Source of the DNA: a virus
Lineage: Duplodnaviria > Caudoviricetes
Direction: 5' to 3' (one strand)
Virus record (IMG/VR): IMGVR_UViG_3300037478_000472
Location: 1 to 38,028 of that record
Length of the DNA: 38,028 nucleotides
The notes below the pieces were generated by a model. It had not been told where the DNA came from. It saw only the letters and a list, made by a program, of their open reading frames with translations, and ran no database searches. This document shows positions 2,942-20,974 of this stretch, in pieces. Position 1 is the stretch's first letter. Every line of letters starts with the position of its first letter. Position numbers and translations under genes: made by a program.

Positions 2942-3363
2942 TGACGGCACTCGAGATCGTTCTGACCGCGGCTCTGCCGCTGCTCATGGCGGCGGGGGCC
3001 GGCATTCTCAAGATCGTGCAGTGGAATCAGCAGCGCAGAGAGCGAGTCGAGATGCGACGCATTGAAGCAGAGGAGCGCGATGGTGAGCGAGAGGATCGCA
3101 CCGTGGAGCGCCTGTGGGCGTGCCTCAAAGAGGATCGCCAGCGCATCCAGGAGCTCGAGGATACGTCGCACGAATGCTTGAAGCAGCTCGCCGAAGCGAA
3201 GGTCGAGATCGAGCGGAGCATGCGCGAGTCGGTTCGCGCTGAGACAAAGCGCGAGGTCAAGCGCGCGCTGTCGGATCCAAGGGGCATCCCCGTTCAGCGC
3301 GAAGTGCAGAAGCGGACGAACTTGCCTTCCGAACACCCATTTCCACCCCGGAAGAAGCCCTAG
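2941..3363 (+). CDS. Membrane-anchored coiled-coil protein (lysis-module candidate)
   Basis: ATG overlaps the upstream stop; hydrophobic N-terminus LEIVLTAALPLLMAAGAGILKIV followed by a charged helical region. Confidence 0.6.
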   Translation: MTALEIVLTAALPLLMAAGAGILKIVQWNQQRRERVEMRRIEAEERDGEREDRTVERLWACLKEDRQRIQELEDTSHECLKQLAEAKVEIERSMRESVRAETKREVKRALSDPRGIPVQREVQKRTNLPSEHPFPPRKKP

Positions 3364-3372
3364 GAGGCTCCC

Positions 3373-3585
3373 ATGATGTCAGCACTGCTAATCCTCGTTC
3401 TGTTTCTCGTGCTCGTAGGCGTAGGGCTATGGGCGCTCGGCCAGTTCCCCGCGATCGACCCGACGATCAAGAAAGTCATCAAGGTACTGGTCGTAGTCAT
3501 CGTGGTCGTGGTCGTGGTCCTTTTCCTCTTCCACTACGTCTTGGGCGTCGACCTTCCCGGCGGTCGCGGCGGGCTGCTGCGGTGA
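3373..3585 (+). CDS. Small two-TM membrane protein, holin candidate (resembles the Thivi_2564 family)
   Basis: AGGAGG RBS; two hydrophobic stretches separated by PAIDPTIKK; adjacent Met-Met start. Confidence 0.65.
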   Translation: MMSALLILVLFLVLVGVGLWALGQFPAIDPTIKKVIKVLVVVIVVVVVVLFLFHYVLGVDLPGGRGGLLR

Positions 3586-3586
3586 C

Positions 3587-3934
3587 GTGGCAAACACACG
3601 ACGACCGCCGCGCAAGCCGAGCTCGCAGAGCTGGTATCTGCCGCACTCAGAGCGGCGGGAGATGTACGTCGCCAGGCATTTGCTCGTGGAGGTCGACGTG
3701 ATCGAAGCGCACCTTGACGAGCTCTCCGCAGCGACGCCAGAAGAGCGCCGAGCACGTCTTGAAGTGCTGGCAGCGCGACTCATGCGCTCCACGTGGGACG
3801 AGGCAGCGAAATACGAGAGCGAGCTCCGCTCCGCGCTCGACGTCGCGCGCGCGGTAATCGCCAGGCTTGAGAGCGAGCTGCGTCAGCATGGACTGCCCGT
3901 GCCGACCGACCGGAAGGACTCGGAGCTGCCATGA
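3587..3934 (+). CDS. Hypothetical helical protein
   Basis: Fills the operon gap; ATGA overlap with the next gene. Confidence 0.55.
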   Translation: MANTRRPPRKPSSQSWYLPHSERREMYVARHLLVEVDVIEAHLDELSAATPEERRARLEVLAARLMRSTWDEAAKYESELRSALDVARAVIARLESELRQHGLPVPTDRKDSELP

Positions 3935-4284
3935 CGGACATCGTGCAGTTCGCCGTCGACGTGCTGCTGCTAGCGGGAGGACTCCTGCTGCTACGCAAGT
4001 CGCGCAAGGCGCCACCGAAGACAGACCTACTCGCGTCGCACGACGAAGTGGTCATGGCGCGCTCCGCGACGCTACGTGCGCGCGGTGCTCGCCGGCGTAG
4101 GAGGTCGGTGATGGAAACAGCAATCGTGGCGTTGATCGCGGCGATCGAAGCACTCCTCGATCGTGACAAGGCGAAGGCGAAGGAGGAAATCGCGAAGGCG
4201 AAAATCGCGGTCGCCGAGATCGAAGTGAAGGAGGACGAGGGTTCCTGGGATTCGGACCTGGCGGAAAGGCTGAAACGGGGATGA
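3931..4284 (+). CDS. N-terminal TM protein; possible second in-frame start at 4111
   Basis: IVQFAVDVLLLAGGLLLL followed by basic residues; AGGAGG precedes the internal ATG at 4111. Confidence 0.6.
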   Translation: MTDIVQFAVDVLLLAGGLLLLRKSRKAPPKTDLLASHDEVVMARSATLRARGARRRRRSVMETAIVALIAAIEALLDRDKAKAKEEIAKAKIAVAEIEVKEDEGSWDSDLAERLKRG

Positions 4285-4910
4285 GCTGGCTCATCGTCAC
4301 GCCCGACCGCAACTCCAAGGGCAAGCGCGACTACACGGGCGCCTTCAGACCCGAAGCGGCGGCGTTCCTGAAGCACCATGGGCGCACGGAAACGCCCGTG
4401 CGCGTCGCGCTCGACACGAGCCCACACATGCGCCAGGTGCAGTTGCTCGGCGCGATCAACGATAGCCCGCCACTCGAGCTGATCGCGCTCTTCACGCACG
4501 GCTTGCGCAGTCGGCTGCCCCAGTTCGGGTGGTCGCTGTCGGACGTCTCCGAGCTCGCGCTGATGATCGTGATGCACAGCGTCCCTGACGTGCGCGTGGT
4601 GCTGTACGCCTGCGACACGGCAGCAGGCACCGGGCCTGGCGGTGATGGCGGCTTCGCCGATGCGCTACGTGACGAAACAGTGCGGCTCGGCGCACTCGGA
4701 TGCCAGGTCGACGCGCACAAGACCGCGGGGCACACGACGCGCAATCCATACGTGCGGCGCTTCGACGCCAGCCAGCAAGGCAAGGGCGGCACCTGGCTCG
4801 TGGACCCTGACGGGCCGCTGTGGCGCCGCTGGGTGCGGGCGCTGCGCGAAACGCCGCTCCGCTATGACTTCCCCCTGCTGACGCAGGCGGAGATCCACGC
4901 GCGTCTCTAG
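4281..4910 (+). CDS. Putative clan CD (caspase-fold, DUF4347-like) cysteine peptidase
   Basis: LIALFTHG (His73) and VRVVLYACDTAAG (Cys111), followed by GFADAL. Confidence 0.6.
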   Translation: MSWLIVTPDRNSKGKRDYTGAFRPEAAAFLKHHGRTETPVRVALDTSPHMRQVQLLGAINDSPPLELIALFTHGLRSRLPQFGWSLSDVSELALMIVMHSVPDVRVVLYACDTAAGTGPGGDGGFADALRDETVRLGALGCQVDAHKTAGHTTRNPYVRRFDASQQGKGGTWLVDPDGPLWRRWVRALRETPLRYDFPLLTQAEIHARL

Positions 4911-5410
4911 GGCTCCCTGTCCCGCAGCGCGCGGATGATCGCCTCGCGGTCCACGCGGTGCGCGCAATGCTCCTCGACCACCGCGATCGCTTCGTCGAGG
5001 GCAGCGACGCGCGCCTGAGCTACTGCGCGTTCCATGTCGCGGTTCCACGCGTCGATGGCCTGCCGGTGCCCTTCGGCTTCATGGGCCGCCTCCTCGCGCG
5101 CTTCGTCGCGCTGCACAAGCAGCTCAGCGCAGGTGCTGCGCATGCTATCGAGCTCGACGCGAGTTTTGTCGCGCTGTTCCAGAGCGTTTCCGACATGGTA
5201 GTTCCGCGACTTCCATGCCTCCGCTGCCCGCGCTTCGGCCGCGTCGAGGGCGGTGCCGGCGGGCGCGGGCCACGGTCCGCCGCAAGAATCGCACGTGCCC
5301 GTCTCCGGCATTGGCAGCGGGCCGACGGCGCGGTCAAGCCCGAGCGAGCTGCACAGCGCGCACGTGAGCGTGTGGTACCTGGTGTCGGCCGCATCGTCGC
5401 TGTCGATCAC
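4907..5410 (-). CDS. Zn-ribbon plus coiled-coil accessory protein
   Basis: GTG after GGAGG; CALC...CDSC; stop overlaps the convergent gene at CTAG. Confidence 0.65.
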   Translation of the reverse strand: MIDSDDAADTRYHTLTCALCSSLGLDRAVGPLPMPETGTCDSCGGPWPAPAGTALDAAEARAAEAWKSRNYHVGNALEQRDKTRVELDSMRSTCAELLVQRDEAREEAAHEAEGHRQAIDAWNRDMERAVAQARVAALDEAIAVVEEHCAHRVDREAIIRALRDREP

Positions 5411-5607
5411 TTCTCGCCTCCGGGGTCGGGTGGGGTGGTGGGGAACCAAGTCAGGTCGCGCAGGCACGAGGAACACAGCGGCGCATAATCGATCACGGCA
5501 CCGTCGAGCGCGGTCACGATGACGCGTACTTCCGGCGCGAACCGCTGGCATCGCCAGCACAGCGCTTCGTCCAGGATCGGCTCGGCGATCAAACGCCCGT
5601 CACCCAT
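5407..5607 (-). CDS. Small CxxC...CxxC protein
   Basis: GGAGG RBS; CWRC and CSSC; coupled to the next gene. Confidence 0.65.
   Translation of the reverse strand: MGDGRLIAEPILDEALCWRCQRFAPEVRVIVTALDGAVIDYAPLCSSCLRDLTWFPTTPPDPGGEK
5413..5438. repeat. 26-bp G-rich direct repeat, copy 1
   Basis: ctcgcctccggggtcgggtggggtgg, identical to 5609-5634. Confidence 0.95.
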
Positions 5608-5608
5608 G

Positions 5609-5634
5609 CTCGCCTCCGGGGTCGGGTGGGGTGG
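5609..5634. repeat. 26-bp G-rich direct repeat, copy 2
   Basis: Identical to 5413-5438. Confidence 0.95.
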
Positions 5635-5637
5635 GGC

Positions 5638-5742
5638 TCATGCTGCACGCTCCTTCACTCGCGCTCGTCGCGCGATCTCGACCAGCCATTCCGCGAACGC
5701 CTGCGGCGTTCTCCGCCGCTGCTGTGCCGAGCAGACGGTCAC
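5638..5742 (-). pseudogene. 34-codon ORF, probable C-terminal remnant of a phage methyltransferase-like gene
   Basis: GTGA-coupled start; CSAQQRRRTPQAFAEWLVEIARR resembles a C-terminal motif that I recall from longer phage proteins. Confidence 0.35.
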
Positions 5743-6281
5743 GGCTCCCGATCCCGCAACTGGGCCACCAGCGCCAGTGTCGCTTCCGCCGGCATCTGCG
5801 CCTCGTGCGCCTCGCGCAGCTGCTCGGCCAGACGTCCCGCCTCCTCTGTCACGGCGTCGCACTGCGCGCGGTCCTGCGCGGCCTGGCGCAGCGCTTCGTC
5901 GCGCTCGCGCACGATCGCACGCACGCGCTCGGCCAGCGTCGCTTCGCTGCGCTGCTCGCCCTCTGCGCCGAGAGCGTCGTGTACCAGATCGAGCGCGCGC
6001 ATCACGACCGCCTGCCGCGCTTCGCCTGCGGCCGCTCCCTTCCGGTAGGCGCGAGCGGCTACGATGTCAGCCCGTCCAAGCGAGCCGTCCGCATGGCTGA
6101 CCTCTAGTGCCCGCTCTGCTTCCGCTGCCCGCGCTTCGGCCGCATCGAGGGCGGCGAGTAGGGCGCGTAGGTCTCCTGCGCAGACAGAGCGGTCCTCGTC
6201 GTCGAGGTCAGCAGGCGCCAGCGACCGTGCCGCCCAGCGGCGGACATTCGCCACCCGCCGCGCGCGCTCGTCGTCGGTCAT
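5739..6281 (-). CDS. Coiled-coil accessory protein, paralogous to 4907..5410
   Basis: ATGA-coupled start MTDDERARR; shares ALDAAEARAAEA, RDEA and the LRDREP C-terminus. Confidence 0.7.
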   Translation of the reverse strand: MTDDERARRVANVRRWAARSLAPADLDDEDRSVCAGDLRALLAALDAAEARAAEAERALEVSHADGSLGRADIVAARAYRKGAAAGEARQAVVMRALDLVHDALGAEGEQRSEATLAERVRAIVRERDEALRQAAQDRAQCDAVTEEAGRLAEQLREAHEAQMPAEATLALVAQLRDREP

Positions 6282-6592
6282 CGCTGGCCTCGTGCGGCGT
6301 CGTAGGCGTTGATAGCTCTCTCGACGGTGCAAATCGTGCACGGACACGCCCCTCGCGCACACAGGTAAGGCCGCTGAATCTGGAGAGTTGCATCCCGTAG
6401 CGCGTCCGCGGCGGCCACGATGGCGCGCAGGCGGGTGAGCTCTGCCATCAGCGTCCTGATGCGCAGTGCGTACGATGGGGGGCGCTCTTTCAGATGCTGG
6501 CATCCGCCGCTTGTCGTCATCCCCGAAGGGCGCTCGGTGCGCATGACGCAATCGCGGTCGGAGCACGGCGTACACCAGTCGTCTTCGCTCAT
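6278..6592 (-). CDS. Cys-rich hypothetical protein
   Basis: GAGGAG RBS before MSEDDWCTPC; CxxxxCxCxxC near the C-terminus. Confidence 0.65.
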   Translation of the reverse strand: MSEDDWCTPCSDRDCVMRTERPSGMTTSGGCQHLKERPPSYALRIRTLMAELTRLRAIVAAADALRDATLQIQRPYLCARGACPCTICTVERAINAYDAARGQR

Positions 6593-6946
6593 CGCTCCTC
6601 GCTTTCCTTGCGCAGCACATCGCGGCCGGCGGGGGTGATCGCCAGCCAGCCATTGCGGACGAGCACGTACAGCTCGATCGTCGAAACATGCTCGTACGTG
6701 AGCAATCGAATCGCCTCGAGCGCGCGCTACCCCCGTGGCCTCTACGACGTACGTGTCGATGTACTCCTGCACATCGCGCAGCGCGTGATGGAAGCGTTCG
6801 GCTTGTGCGATGAACGCGCTCATCCGGATGTCGTCGTCGCGCAGCGGGTTCGCGGGGATGGAGTAGCGCGCGTGCTCTCGCTCGGGCTGGCGGAAGTGCG
6901 AGGCGTTGAACCGAAGAAGGATCTCTCGCGCCTCATTGACCGTCAC
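6589..6946 (-). CDS. Hypothetical gene, possibly frameshifted near 6727
   Basis: Protein-like frame from GTG 6946; the protein-like, ATGA-coupled tail lies in the +1 frame. Confidence 0.4.
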
Positions 6947-6974
6947 GTGCCCGGCACGCGTGTGGTCTTCGCGC

Positions 6975-7204
6975 AGGTGTCGGTCCAAGTGTCGGTTTGA
7001 ACTGCAATCCGGCGCAATCCCGCGAGTCGCAGCGTCAGGATTCTCCGAGGATTGCAGTCCCGCACTGTCAGGCGAAGCCGGTGTGTCAGCTTGGGAAGCT
7101 GACACTCTACCAACTGAGTTACACCCGCGAGCGTTGATATCGTTATTCTTTTTCGCCATCGCCGTCAAGCTCTCCGGGGGAGGTGTCGGTCGAAGTGTCG
7201 GTTT
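6975..7204. other. attP: attP: arm-type repeats (6975-6998, 7181-7204) flanking a core (7083-7105)
   Basis: aggtgtcggtc(c/g)aagtgtcggttt occurs twice (23/24 identical). The core is gtgtcagc-N7-gctgacac within a tRNA fragment, and a tyrosine integrase lies 0.8 kb away. Confidence 0.85.
7086..7128 (-). pseudogene. 5' half of tRNA-Gly(CCC), att identity block
   Basis: GCGGGTG TA ACTC AGTTGGTA GAGT G TCAGC TTCCCAA GCTGA; no T-arm or acceptor 3' strand follows. Confidence 0.9.
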
Positions 7205-7388
7205 CATCGCGCAAAATGCGTCGGACCTGCCCGAGCGGCACGTTGTCCGGAGCGCTCAGATAGAAGCCGCCGAAATCGTTTTCAAGCAGCTGGTCAACCG
7301 TCGCGAGTTTGCGACGTAGCTCCGCTACTTCATCGAGCGCGTCATCGCCGTAGCAAAGCGGCGCGCTCCATTTCCAATCGTCGCTCAT
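7143..7388 (-). CDS. Hypothetical acidic protein; its 3' end overlaps an attP arm
   Basis: ATGA-coupled start MSDDWKW; TDTSTDT is encoded by the arm repeat. Confidence 0.55.
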   Translation of the reverse strand: MSDDWKWSAPLCYGDDALDEVAELRRKLATVDQLLENDFGGFYLSAPDNVPLGQVRRILRDETDTSTDTSPGELDGDGEKE

Positions 7389-7591
7389 CGCTCCATCCTC
7401 TCCGCGCTCGCGTCGAGCGCGTCCCTGGCCCATTCACTGAAATCCTGCTCCGCGAGCTCCGCCGCATGGCGCCACACCGCCACCGATTCGAGCGGCGCCA
7501 CGATGTGCAGGCGCACGCTGTCGCCCTGCCCCAGCCGGGGGCGGCCGGCGCCCTTGCGGGCGCCTCCGCGCCCTTGTTTCTCAGCGCTCAC
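7385..7591 (-). CDS. Ribbon-helix-helix-like DNA-binding protein with an RGGARKGAGRP leader
   Basis: GRGGARKGAGRPR, a strand SVRLHIVA, and helices ending FSEWARDALD. Confidence 0.7.
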   Translation of the reverse strand: MSAEKQGRGGARKGAGRPRLGQGDSVRLHIVAPLESVAVWRHAAELAEQDFSEWARDALDASAERMER

Positions 7592-7790
7592 CGGCCAGGT
7601 GCTCCGACACCATCGCGCGTAGGTCGCGCTTCTGGCTGGGCGAGAGCTCGCGGCCAAGCTGCTCAGCCGCAAAGGTGTAGTCCGCCGGGTAGAGGTCCTC
7701 GCTGTCCGTGAAATGCCGCGAGTCCGCGCCCTGTTCCGCCCACTCGCCCGCGATCTGTGCTGCCGCCTGTTCCAAAACCGTGATGTCCAT
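7581..7790 (-). CDS. Small acidic hypothetical protein
   Basis: GGAGG RBS; lies directly downstream of a sigma70-like promoter. Confidence 0.65.
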   Translation of the reverse strand: MDITVLEQAAAQIAGEWAEQGADSRHFTDSEDLYPADYTFAAEQLGRELSPSQKRDLRAMVSEHLAGER

Positions 7791-7809
7791 CGTCGCCTCC
7801 ATACCTCTG

Positions 7810-7837
7810 AATATAAGCACACGATTTCAGGGGTCAA
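7810..7837 (-). promoter_or_regulatory. Sigma70-like promoter
   Basis: TTGACC-N16-TATATT in a locally AT-rich intergenic gap. Confidence 0.7.
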
Positions 7838-7857
7838 GAGGGGTCTCTCATTTTCCC

Positions 7858-7875
7858 GTCACCAGCCGCACCACC
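7858..7875. repeat. 18-bp duplicate of the integrase 3' end
   Basis: gtcaccagccgcaccacc also occurs at 8012-8029. Confidence 0.9.
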
Positions 7876-7877
7876 AA

Positions 7878-7990
7878 GCCCCGGTCACAGGAATCGAACC
7901 TGTGCGTCGTCGGCGTCGATCCGCCACCAGGTGCGCGCTGAGGGAATCGAACCCTCGCGACGTACGCCGAACAGCCGACTGCACCAGCCC
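7878..7990 (-). ncRNA. Two tandem tRNA-like T-arm elements (not complete tRNAs)
   Basis: GAGGG-TTCGATT-CCCTC and ACAGG-TTCGATT-CCTGT hairpins. Confidence 0.5.
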
Positions 7991-7998
7991 GGGTCATT

Positions 7999-9138
7999 CT
8001 ACTTTGCTCCAGTCACCAGCCGCACCACCGCGGCGCTCGCCTCTCGTAGCTCATGCTCCGACACGCGCGAGTAATGCTTCGCGCCGACCTCCGCCGACGC
8101 GTGCCCGATCAACGTCTGCCGCACGAGCTCGCCGACGCGCAGCTGACGCAGCAGATTATTGTGCGACTTCCGAAAGCCCTTCGCCGTCGGAAAGCGCCCG
8201 TCGATCTTCAGTGCCTGCAGCGCCTTGCGCACGGGCTTATTGAGCGCCGAGTTGTGGTGCAGCGTGCAGCCACGCCCGACGAAGACGTACGGCGATTCGG
8301 CGTAGCGCTGCTGCTTCATCCGCGCGGTGCGGTGCTCACGCAGTATCGCCGCGAGCTCGGGTGCAAGCGGCACATCGCGCAAGCCGCACTTGCTCTTCGG
8401 GTGATCGACGCAGCCGCGCACCTGCGCACGCCGCACGCGGATCCAACCGCCCTCTTCGTCGAGATCGGACCACCGCAGCGCCGTTGCCTCGCCGAAGCGC
8501 AGTCCGGTAAGCGCGAGCGTGGCGACGAGCGGGTGCCACTGCCGCCACTGTTCGGAGAGCCGCAGCCACTCGAGCACGGCGCCGACCTCGACGGCGTCCA
8601 GGTAGCGCACGTCTTGCTCGCTGAGCGGTTCGCGCACGCTCGGCACGAGCAGCGTCCTCGGGTCAGCGCCAACGTCTTTCAAGATCTCTTTCAAGAGGCG
8701 CAACCTACTGTTGATTGTCGTCGGCGTGACGGGCCCTTCCTTGCGCGACTTCGACGATCGCGTCTGCGAGTCACGCCACGCCGCGACGTCATCGGCGGTG
8801 ATCGCGTGCACGTAGTAGCTACCGATCACGCTGTTTCGCACGTGTGCGTCGATGCACGACGCGTTCTGCTTCCGTGTCGATGGCTTCCAGCTCGGTTGCT
8901 TCATAGCGAACCAGGAGGTCGCGGCAGCTGCCAGCGTCCGGCGCGGCGCTAGCGGCCTTGCGCTGAGGCACTCTGCGCGCAGCTCTTCGCGCTGGCGCGC
9001 GGCGTCCTTCGCGCTCTTCGCGTCGATCGTTGCCTCCTTCTTCTTCGCCTTGCCGTCCTTCTCCGACGTCCAGTGCACCACGATCAGATAGCGGCCCTTC
9101 GCTAGCGACCACACTCCCGGATAGCTCGTCTTCTTCAT
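7999..9138 (-). CDS. int: Tyrosine integrase
   Basis: TGLRFGE, PKSK, KGFR (at the HxxR position), IGH, KHY; N-terminal arm-binding-like region from MKKTSYPGV. Confidence 0.95.
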   Translation of the reverse strand: MKKTSYPGVWSLAKGRYLIVVHWTSEKDGKAKKKEATIDAKSAKDAARQREELRAECLSARPLAPRRTLAAAATSWFAMKQPSWKPSTRKQNASCIDAHVRNSVIGSYYVHAITADDVAAWRDSQTRSSKSRKEGPVTPTTINSRLRLLKEILKDVGADPRTLLVPSVREPLSEQDVRYLDAVEVGAVLEWLRLSEQWRQWHPLVATLALTGLRFGEATALRWSDLDEEGGWIRVRRAQVRGCVDHPKSKCGLRDVPLAPELAAILREHRTARMKQQRYAESPYVFVGRGCTLHHNSALNKPVRKALQALKIDGRFPTAKGFRKSHNNLLRQLRVGELVRQTLIGHASAEVGAKHYSRVSEHELREASAAVVRLVTGAK

Positions 9139-9305
9139 GCAGCCCTCGTCGTAGGAATGCGTCCAGCGTCTCACGGCGCCAGCGGTGAGCGCCACCCGGC
9201 GTTGCGCCGTCGGGCCGCAGCTCGCCGCGCGCGATTGCTTTTGCGATGCCGCCTTTCGTTTCGTAGCCACAGTACGTCGCCGCCTCGGCGGTCGTCAGCC
9301 AGCGG

Positions 9306-9313
<8 letters not shown>
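8819..9313 (-). CDS. xis: Excisionase-like HTH protein; frame runs into int
   Basis: WLTTAEAATYCG...IARGEL...HRWRRETLDAFL, immediately upstream of int. Confidence 0.75.
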
Positions 9314-10239
<926 letters not shown>

Positions 10240-10264
<25 letters not shown>

Positions 10265-12670: not shown

Positions 12671-12699
12671 CTTATAGTGTTGACGCTATAGCGTGTCAA
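12671..12699 (-). promoter_or_regulatory. PL-like promoter with a palindromic operator candidate
   Basis: TTGACA-N17-TATAAG; perfect palindrome ACGCTATAGCGT at 12683-12694. Confidence 0.8.
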
Positions 12700-18084: not shown

Positions 18085-18438
18085 ATGAACCCTGACCGCG
18101 AGCGCGTGTCCCGGTGGCGTCTCCTCGAGGGCGAGGAGCTGGCTCGCCTCCGAGCTCAGGCCGGCCACCTCGGGCACGTGGACCGAGCTCGTGTGTGCAT
18201 CGAGCTCGACCACACGACCGGAAAGACCAGCGAGCGCATCGACATGGTCTTCGCTCCACGCATGCCGATGGCTAGTAGCTCAACTGGAAGAGCGGCGGAT
18301 TTTGGTCCCGCAGGTTCGGGGTTCGAGCCCCCGCTAGCCAATGCTCCACGCACCGAGGCACGTCCGGACCTGACCACGACCACCCCCCTGGCAGATCCGT
18401 GCGTGCCTCGGTCTGTGGACCGAGAGGAGGGGCGATGA
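18085..18438 (+). CDS. Hypothetical ORF spanning the tRNA
   Basis: ATG at the end of the iteron array; ends ATGA-coupled to the next gene. Confidence 0.4.
   Translation: MNPDRERVSRWRLLEGEELARLRAQAGHLGHVDRARVCIELDHTTGKTSERIDMVFAPRMPMASSSTGRAADFGPAGSGFEPPLANAPRTEARPDLTTTTPLADPCVPRSVDREEGR
18269..18341 (+). tRNA. tRNA-Gln(UUG), no encoded CCA
   Basis: TGGCTAG/CTAGCCA acceptor stem, GCTC/GAGC D stem, loop TTTTGGT, T arm CGGGG-TTCGAGC-CCCCG. Confidence 0.85.
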
Positions 18439-20362: not shown

Positions 20363-20547
20363 AACACAGTGACATGGCGGAGAGATGGTTGGACGCCAAG
20401 CTCGGACCGGCACACACAGACGAGCTCGGCCGCAGATGGTGTGTGGTGCACGTGGAGTGCGATGGCGACCCGCGTGTCGAGGTTATGGAGCTGCTGGGCA
20501 GCGAGAAGCCCAAGCGCAAGCATGCGAAGGCGCTTCACGATGAGTGA
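20359..20547 (+). CDS. Hypothetical protein
   Basis: ATGA-coupled to TerS. Confidence 0.5.
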   Translation: MKHSDMAERWLDAKLGPAHTDELGRRWCVVHVECDGDPRVEVMELLGSEKPKRKHAKALHDE

Positions 20548-20974
20548 GTTCGCGTTCGAGCTCTCGGGCCAGCGCGTCCCGACACCGCAGAGCGACGGTG
20601 TGGTGCTGTGCGTGCTCGACAGCGAGGCGAGCATCGACAACCGCACTGGCATCGTGACGAAGACAGGTGACCGCATGCACAAGCGTGGCCTTGTGATCGC
20701 CGTCGGACCTGGCAAGCGTCACCCGCGCACTGACGCACTGCTGCCGATGGAGCTGCGCGTCGGTGACTGTGTGCTCTACGAGGAGTGGAGACTGCAGTGG
20801 CATTCTGGCGTGGGACCATGGCCTGCAGCGGGTGACCTCGTGCTGCTGCGTGAGGAAGCGGTCGTGATGGTGTTGGATGACCCCGAGACGCAGGTCGATG
20901 TCAGGTTCCGGCTCATGCCTGAAGCGCCTGACGACAACCTGCCGGCGAGCGGGATTCACAGGAGTAGCTACTGA
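20540..20974 (+). CDS. GroES/Cpn10-like co-chaperonin
   Basis: P..D.VV, TGIV, RGLVIAVGPG, PMELRVGDCVLY and LLREEAVV follow the Cpn10 motif order. Confidence 0.85.
   Translation: MSEFAFELSGQRVPTPQSDGVVLCVLDSEASIDNRTGIVTKTGDRMHKRGLVIAVGPGKRHPRTDALLPMELRVGDCVLYEEWRLQWHSGVGPWPAAGDLVLLREEAVVMVLDDPETQVDVRFRLMPEAPDDNLPASGIHRSSY

What the first reader, a model, noticed from the sequence alone, without database searches (positions are those of the whole stretch)
4907..7837. Integration-dependent promoter swap between the host tRNA and a phage accessory operon
Seen, on the minus strand: promoter (7837-7810), 69-aa ORF, RHH regulator, 81-aa ORF, tRNA 5' half, then co-oriented genes 6946-4907 with no promoter or terminator that I can recognise. 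Geometric consequence: crossover in the anticodon loop puts the intact tRNA-Gly downstream of the phage promoter and RHH operon. It also points the host tRNA promoter into the accessory genes, while cutting them off from phage PL. Inference: integration acts as a switch, giving the prophage control of a host tRNA and giving the accessory genes host (possibly stringent) control.
Basis: inference. Interest (0 to 1): 0.8.

Follow-up and report, generated by a model that had tools for sequence, protein, structure and literature searches.

The report
Reversed tRNA-Gly attP with spare promoter
A phage, likely of myxobacteria, carries the front half of a glycine tRNA gene behind its own copy of a host-style promoter sequence at its likely integration site, so integration would probably swap one tRNA promoter for a similar one rather than act as a switch; this back-to-front layout is uncommon but already known.

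Summary
The anatomy is real. The window is a circular 38-kb lambda-like phage. Its attP (6975-7204) has a 43-nt tRNA-Gly(CCC) 5' half (7128-7086) between paired arm repeats like those of its integrase family, which targets tRNA anticodon loops in Myxococcota. It ranks 1 of 75,992 window positions under a matrix from 29 native Polyangiales tRNA-Gly promoters. All 6 relatives with this 5'-half layout carry such a site at 41 nt, including integrated elements. The rebuilt tRNA would not depend on the 7837 promoter or the RHH-like gene, and the accessory genes already sit behind a tRNA-type promoter in the free phage. A homologue of the first accessory gene lies at the same distance beyond attP in an ordinary 3'-half phage. 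5'-fragment islands are known (159 of 3919 in Islander), and this scan found the same kind at least eight times on other DNA. One possibility remains untested: the phage copy has an AT-rich discriminator, so stringent control might differ. Ordinary; low interest.

The parts
7999..9138 (-). Tyrosine integrase, 379 aa, of a Myxococcota family that targets tRNA anticodon loops
   Evidence: PF00589 40 bits against a cut-off of 27.1; R214, K248, R323, H346, Y356 invariant in a 19-sequence alignment; relatives' tRNA targets
8819..9313 (-). Excisionase-like HTH gene; the frame runs on over the start of int
   Evidence: HTH_17 E 5e-5, below the Pfam cut-off; phrog_66 E 0.004; homologues beside int in many relatives
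7854..8029 (-). 22-nt direct repeat that duplicates the last int codons (VVRLVTG), enclosing two tRNA T-arm-like hairpins (about 7963-7931 and 7910-7886); likely an insertion, not a second attP
   Evidence: tandem T-loop hairpins are common in viral contigs (about 290 stretches)
7810..7837 (-). Sigma-70-type promoter-like site of the three-ORF cassette, with short inverted repeats 7841-7804
   Evidence: lacks the CGCTATA motif found at the PL and PR sites
7581..7790 (-). 69-aa ORF, unknown
   Evidence: no Pfam or PHROG family
7385..7591 (-). 68-aa RHH-like regulator (plausible)
   Evidence: ESM Atlas; no support from Pfam, PHROGs or Foldseek
7143..7388 (-). 81-aa ORF; its tail covers the arm repeat and the -35 box, and its TAA stop is the start of the -10 box
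7181..7204 (-). Int-proximal arm-type site pair (CCGACAC twice, 12-bp period)
   Evidence: near-identical arm pairs in the same orientation in relative L092
7139..7168 (-). Phage-borne copy of a host-type tRNA promoter: TTGACG 7168-7163, 17 nt, TAACGA(T) 7145-7139; AT-rich discriminator; overlaps an A-tract plus TATCAA that resembles an IHF site (consensus recalled)
7086..7128 (-). tRNA-Gly(CCC) 5' half = attP core; anticodon loop 7097-7091 inside an 8-bp inverted repeat (7105-7098 and 7090-7083)
7000..7059 (-). Imperfect palindrome or hairpin behind the half, no U-tract (accessory-protein sites or a pause/processing site; untested)
6975..6998 (-). Int-distal arm-type site pair
4907..6946 (-). 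Co-oriented small accessory genes; the first has a homologue 148 nt beyond the core of 3'-half phage L013

Best explanation
The region 6975-7204 is very likely the attP of the phage's tyrosine integrase: it holds the 5' half of tRNA-Gly(CCC) with a host-style promoter sequence 40 nt upstream, so integration into a myxobacterial tRNA-Gly gene would likely rebuild the tRNA behind a like-for-like replacement promoter rather than work as a regulatory switch. Shown in sequence: the arms, the core dyad, the tRNA half and the promoter motif, and the same layout in integrated relatives. Inferred: crossover in the 7-bp loop, activity of both promoters, and the host group. The 7837 promoter, ORF69, RHH-like gene and ORF81 are likely an accessory cassette inserted between int and attP, probably self-regulated. 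They could add read-through into the tRNA but not shut it off. The genes 6946-4907 are likely the distal end of the early-left accessory region. They are cut off from PL in the prophage as in 3'-half relatives, and they have a tRNA-type promoter upstream in both states.
For: Arm pairs of 12-bp period flank the core about 200 bp apart, as in the family, and match those of L092 in the same orientation to int. The family targets anticodon loops, often Gly. The motif TTGAC-17-TA at 39-48 nt precedes Polyangiales tRNA-Gly genes (29 of 35 unique upstream regions anchored). The window site ranks 1 of 75,992 and scores 13.8, inside the native in-sample range of 8.9-26.1. 6 of 6 relatives with the 5' layout have TTGAC at 41 nt, and 5 of 6 have TA after 17 nt. 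G017 holds a whole 5.3-kb integrated element: native promoter plus half at one end; int, arm, element promoter and intact tRNA at the other. G001 holds 6 copies of the 5' part, each with such a promoter, one of them intact. The homologue of the first accessory gene lies 148 nt beyond the core in 3'-half phage L013 (56% over 45 aa, E 2e-13). Genes lie between int and attP in 6 of 11 relatives examined. A co-oriented gene starts within 300 nt behind the half in only 3 of 8 integrated halves (rough calls).
Against: No lysogen of this phage was seen, and no transcript data exist. The 10 nt after the TA are 30% GC in the window, 42% on average in 8 element-borne promoters and 64% in 29 native ones (p 4e-5), so the swap may not be fully like-for-like. 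That comparison is confounded: 4 of the 8 come from one genome, whose presumed native promoter is as AT-rich. No terminator separates the 7837 cassette from the tRNA (only weak hairpin-plus-T sites). The matrix ranking is partly built in, since the matrix was anchored on TTGAC and TA and has a fixed 17-nt spacer. An unrelated 114-kb phage (L002) has the same 5' half without TTGAC in the 70 nt upstream, so the promoter copy is not universal outside this family.
Confidence: 0.8

Rival explanations
1. Soft switch: both promoters work but are regulated differently. The phage copy, with an AT-rich discriminator and a possible IHF or integrase overlap, would free tRNA-Gly(CCC) from stringent control in the lysogen, while the host promoter would put the accessory genes under growth-rate control.
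For: Window GC after the TA is 0.3, the lowest of 37 promoters scored; element mean 0.42 against native 0.64. GC-rich discriminators go with stringent control in enterobacteria (PMC8422995, passages). No terminator lies between the half and 6946.
Against: Within-genome pairs differ little: G017 0.6 native against 0.5 element, and G001 0.4 presumed native against 0.4 (counted by hand). A 60-nt hairpin follows the half. The same first accessory gene occurs without any tRNA promoter in L013. Only 3 of 8 integrated halves have a near co-oriented gene. GGG can be read by tRNA-Gly(UCC) through wobble (own knowledge), which limits the effect.
Confidence: 0.12
2. One reading: the rebuilt tRNA depends on the 7837 promoter and RHH-like protein, and the accessory genes get a promoter only on integration.
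For: The 7837 site is a good sigma-70 match without the PL/PR operator-like motif, so it could be active in a lysogen. No terminator lies before the tRNA.
Against: A host-type promoter motif lies at 7168-7139, top-ranked in the genome and present in 6 of 6 same-layout relatives, none of which has such a cassette between int and the tRNA. No homologue of the three cassette proteins was found in any locus fetched up.
Confidence: 0.04
3. The site is a relic, and the integrase uses another site such as the repeat-flanked T-arm region 7854-8029, or the phage no longer integrates.
For: The 7854-8029 region has 22-nt direct repeats with a 12-bp internal period around T-arm hairpins right behind int. 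The tRNA half lies 871 nt from int.
Against: The 22-nt repeat is a copy of the int's last codons. It holds no anticodon arm, while the family uses anticodon loops. The arms at 6975-7204 match those of L092. Gaps of 330-1200 nt occur in relatives. The integrase frame and conserved residues are intact.
Confidence: 0.04

Closest known systems
Islander genomic islands with a 5' tDNA fragment and anticodon-centred site A (Hudson, Lau & Williams, PMC4383910; passages incl. Table 1 seen)
   Same: Tyrosine integrase, about 250-bp attP holding a tDNA end fragment that restores the gene, anticodon-loop crossover, tandem arrays. 159 of 3919 islands have the 5' fragment.
   Different: Here it is a free phage of uncultured Myxococcota. 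The word 'promoter' does not occur in that paper's main text, so the replacement promoter is documented here from relatives. The layout has flipped several times within one integrase family.
Element that reverses the usual target-gene orientation (Zhao & Williams 2002, J Bacteriol 184:859; not seen: not held; the lead came from earlier scan notes)
   Same: By those notes, an element that supplies the 5' part of a tRNA gene.
   Different: Content could not be checked; host and tRNA may differ.
Myxococcus phages Mx8 and Mx9 (review PMC6070905, passages)
   Same: P22-like temperate myxophages with site-specific integration; Mx8 is a true integration-dependent switch.
   Different: In Mx8 attP lies inside int and integration changes the Int C-terminus. 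Here attP is about 870 nt behind an intact int, and no known protein is altered.
Ordinary 3'-half members of the same integrase family (L092, L007, L013, L118)
   Same: Same integrase family, arm design and Gly targets; co-oriented accessory genes beyond attP.
   Different: The tRNA core is flipped relative to int, so the phage must bring the 5' half and a promoter.

Membership tests
tRNA-targeting tyrosine-integrase attP, site A, 5'-fragment class | Tyrosine integrase encoded by the element | tested here: met
   PF00589 40 bits against 27.1; invariant R, K, R, H, Y
tRNA-targeting tyrosine-integrase attP, site A, 5'-fragment class | Fragment begins at the tRNA 5' end and matches a host gene | tested here: met
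   43 leading nt identical to the tRNA-Gly(CCC) of G024; one mismatch in 17 of 401 Myxococcota genomes
tRNA-targeting tyrosine-integrase attP, site A, 5'-fragment class | Identity ends at the anticodon stem, with a 7-bp loop in a dyad | tested here: met
   identity ends at 7086; 8-bp inverted repeat around 7097-7091
tRNA-targeting tyrosine-integrase attP, site A, 5'-fragment class | Arm-type repeats on both sides of the core | tested here: met
   24-nt repeats 206 bp apart, like those of L092
tRNA-targeting tyrosine-integrase attP, site A, 5'-fragment class | Integrated form with a restored tRNA and a displaced fragment | tested here: inconclusive
   seen for relatives (G017, G001), not for this phage; contigs of run X1 show no junction
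tRNA-targeting tyrosine-integrase attP, site A, 5'-fragment class | Recombination by this integrase | not testable with these tools
   needs a bench assay
Integration-dependent genetic switches (Mx8 int; mycobacteriophage immunity, recalled) | Crossover gives or removes a promoter or a protein end, so the two states differ in kind | tested here: not met
   the same promoter type precedes the 5' half in attP and attB; the core lies in no recognised gene (one open frame without an RBS, 7207-6278, crosses it)
Integration-dependent genetic switches (Mx8 int; mycobacteriophage immunity, recalled) | Different regulation of the swapped parts | tested here: inconclusive
   discriminator GC differs in the pooled set but is confounded by lineage
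Ribbon-helix-helix regulators (ORF 7591-7385) | Beta strand followed by two helices; family profile match | tested here: inconclusive
   Atlas neighbours carry RHH_1 or RHH_3; model has two helices and no strand; no Pfam, PHROG or Foldseek match

The most novel reading that the evidence does not exclude
The phage rewires control of a host tRNA: its replacement promoter has an AT-rich discriminator overlapped by attP protein sites and is topped up by read-through from an RHH-regulated cassette, so lysogens would make tRNA-Gly(CCC) outside stringent control while the host's growth-regulated promoter drives the phage accessory genes.
Probability: 0.12. Interest if true: 0.55.

Novelty: new member of a known kind. 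Interest (0 to 1): 0.2.

Why it matters
As it stands it matters little: it adds a myxobacterial phage to the known 5'-fragment class. It does show how the class solves its problem, by carrying a promoter copy between arm and core. In this integrase family the layout changed at least three times on well-supported branches, which suggests that flipping is easy. If the two promoters proved to be regulated differently, a prophage would be tuning a host tRNA simply by integrating, which would interest phage and translation specialists.

Tried and rejected
(1) A second attP at 7854-8029: rejected, as the repeat copies the int's last codons; Rfam gave only weak hits there. (2) A GGG-codon sensor: ORF 10264-9800 ends in a Gly-X repeat with 36 of 37 GGG codons, against 20% GGG in 30 other genes. 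But 115 of 120 such viral repeats use one codon at 90% or more, and GGG dominates in 13 of 120 (10 of 64 at GC 60% or more). 0 of 121 GGG-repeat loci held a Gly(CCC) tRNA piece in the flanks fetched (81 of them 5 kb or longer, after a faulty pattern). 0 of 12 viral records with related integrases or the same half had such a repeat. Rejected as coincidence. (3) Single-sequence search for close relatives in viral contigs: none; the nearest integrases (52-56%) have no DNA context here. (4) Sequencing runs: no RNA holder listed; contigs of X1, possibly the source, break at the tRNA and show no att junction. (5) RHH-like protein: only itself among 3 candidates; no Foldseek match. (6) Viral scan for promoter plus 5' half: 2 loci, both intact tRNAs. 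(7) Paper searches with 0 hits or nothing relevant in the listing. Zhao & Williams 2002 and PMC6103662 are not held. PMC11476347 and PMC13626063 (passages) did not address 5' fragments. (8) The careful tree did not finish; the quick tree was used.
Full report
Setting. The window is a whole circular phage genome: a 127-nt terminal overlap and 66% GC, classed as having direct terminal repeats. It has a P22-like portal, terminase, helicase, a repressor/cro-like pair and a tyrosine integrase. Promoter-like sites at 12699 (minus) and 13619 (plus) share a CGCTATA motif and are likely PL and PR. Integrase relatives in named genomes are mostly Myxococcota or unclassified deltaproteobacteria, including Polyangiales, so the host is likely a myxobacterium (inference).

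Observation. The promoter at 7837-7810, the three ORFs, the tRNA-Gly(CCC) 5' half at 7128-7086 and the co-oriented genes 6946-4907 are all present. The RHH label is plausible only. The half is identical over 43 nt to a Polyangiales tRNA-Gly, and its loop sits in an 8-bp inverted repeat. Two 24-nt repeats 206 bp apart flank it.

Is it the attP of this integrase? Relatives fetched with a 19-sequence alignment target anticodon loops of Gly, Leu, Ala, Val and other tRNAs. Their sites have paired repeats of about 12-bp period on both sides. L092 (39% identical, Gly-CCC 3' half) has nearly the same arm sequence in the same orientation to int. One search listed 65 integrase rows. 18 were dropped: 5 lacked the C-terminus, 12 had no classed tRNA piece and 1 was short. 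Of the 47 left, 39 have the usual opposed 3' layout, 7 (with the window) have the co-oriented 5' layout, and 1 has a co-oriented 3' half. On a quick tree the 5' layout needs 5 changes, at least 3 forced by well-supported branches. The repeat-flanked T-arm region right behind int is a duplication of the int's last codons, not a second attP.

The missed promoter. tRNA-Gly genes of Polyangiales are preceded by TTGAC, 17 nt and TA, mostly 39-44 nt upstream. A matrix was built from 29 of 35 unique native upstream regions, 6 not being anchorable. It ranks the window's TTGACG(7168)-17-TAACGAT first of 75,992 positions, at 13.8 against native in-sample scores of 8.9-26.1. The matrix has a fixed spacer, so it does not score the 16-nt 7837 site fairly. 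A simple pattern fitted 11 of 16 further loci, 3 of them from genomes already used. All 6 relatives with the 5' layout have TTGAC at 41 nt, and 5 have TA after 17 nt. G017 shows a whole integrated 5.3-kb element: native promoter plus half plus arm at one end; int, arm, element promoter and intact tRNA at the other. G001 has six copies of the 5' part, one of them intact, each with such a promoter. Many of these promoters lack T at the sixth -10 position. In Rhodobacter such promoters depend on CarD, and M. xanthus has the homologue CdnL (PMC7703639, passages); whether that applies here is untested. One counter-example: the unrelated phage L002 has the same half without TTGAC in the 70 nt upstream.

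Mechanism. Integrase and excisionase likely recombine the 7-bp loop of attP with attB. One junction would read host promoter, 5' half, hairpin, arm, accessory genes. The other would read int, cassette, arm, phage promoter copy, intact tRNA. Since attP already has a tRNA-type promoter in front of the half and the accessory genes, recombination would exchange similar parts. The 7837 cassette lacks the PL/PR motif and has no terminator behind it, so it could add read-through, which RNase P would trim (own knowledge). It could not silence the nearer promoter unless its protein bound there. The accessory layout does not depend on the tRNA. The first called gene beyond attP is co-oriented with int in 8 of 10 ordinary 3'-half loci, by a rough caller of my own. 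L013 has a homologue of the 6946 gene at the same 148-nt distance. Genes between int and attP occur in 6 of 11 relatives examined, one with an RHH-like sequence by eye (L084). Behind 8 integrated halves, a co-oriented gene starts within 300 nt in 3.

Against this reading. No lysogen or RNA data exist for this phage. The 10 nt after the TA are 30% GC here, 42% in 8 element promoters and 64% in 29 native ones (p 4e-5), and GC-rich discriminators go with stringent control in enterobacteria (PMC8422995, passages). But 4 of the 8 come from G001, whose presumed native promoter (L140, left out of both sets) is as AT-rich. The G017 pair differs by one base in ten (hand counts). The AT-rich patch may also be an IHF site (consensus recalled). 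A soft regulatory difference is therefore not excluded (about 12%).

Comparison with what is known. Islander lists 159 of 3919 islands with a 5' tDNA fragment, and describes anticodon-site crossover and tandem arrays (PMC4383910, passages). Earlier notes of this scan describe the same layout on other DNA eight times and cite Zhao & Williams 2002, which I could not read. Mx8 is a real integration switch, but through an attP inside int (PMC6070905, passages). My searches found no paper on replacement promoters in this class; the library lacks most subscription papers, and I read no supplements.

Verdict. New member of a known kind; interest 0.2.

Noticed in passing
window 7854-8029 (-): Two tRNA T-arm-like hairpins inside a 22-nt duplication of the int's last codons; the second unit folds as a three-way junction (z -2.66). 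Tandem T-loop hairpins occur in about 290 viral stretches, often as small tRNA-like units.
   Followed up: partly
window 9800-10264 (-): Gly-X repeat ORF (phrog_18306) with 36 of 37 Gly codons GGG. Such viral repeats almost always use a single Gly codon (115 of 120 at 90% or more); no link to Gly(CCC) attP was found.
   Followed up: yes
window 8819-9313 (-); L117 4034-4582: The excisionase-like frame runs about 320 nt over the start of int in another frame, also in L117; some homologues are HTH_17-integrase fusions (P0043, P0052).
   Followed up: no
L135-L181, upstream of tRNA-Gly: Polyangiales tRNA-Gly promoters mostly have T at the seventh, not the sixth, position after the TA (20 of 29 against 6 of 29), which may mean dependence on CdnL/CarD.
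   Followed up: partly
G001 C9, C37, C109, C165 (L138-L143): Six copies of the tRNA-Gly(CCC) 5' part with promoters: a stack of 5'-type islands with different arm sequences in one genome bin.
   Followed up: partly
L002 3001-3043 (-), integrase 3239-4525 (+): An unrelated 114-kb phage has the identical 43-nt Gly(CCC) 5' half, divergent from a different integrase and without the TTGAC motif.
   Followed up: partly
window 7207-6278 (-): A 309-codon open frame crosses the whole attP into the accessory genes; no RBS, probably chance.
   Followed up: no
window 18269-18341 (+): An intact phage tRNA-Gln(TTG) gene.
   Followed up: no
window 20369-20974 (+): A GroES/Cpn10 domain just before the terminase large subunit region.
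   Followed up: no
window 5216-5253 and 6117-6154; 5411-5440 and 5607-5636: Direct repeats shared between accessory genes (901 and 196 bp apart), suggesting local duplications.
   Followed up: no
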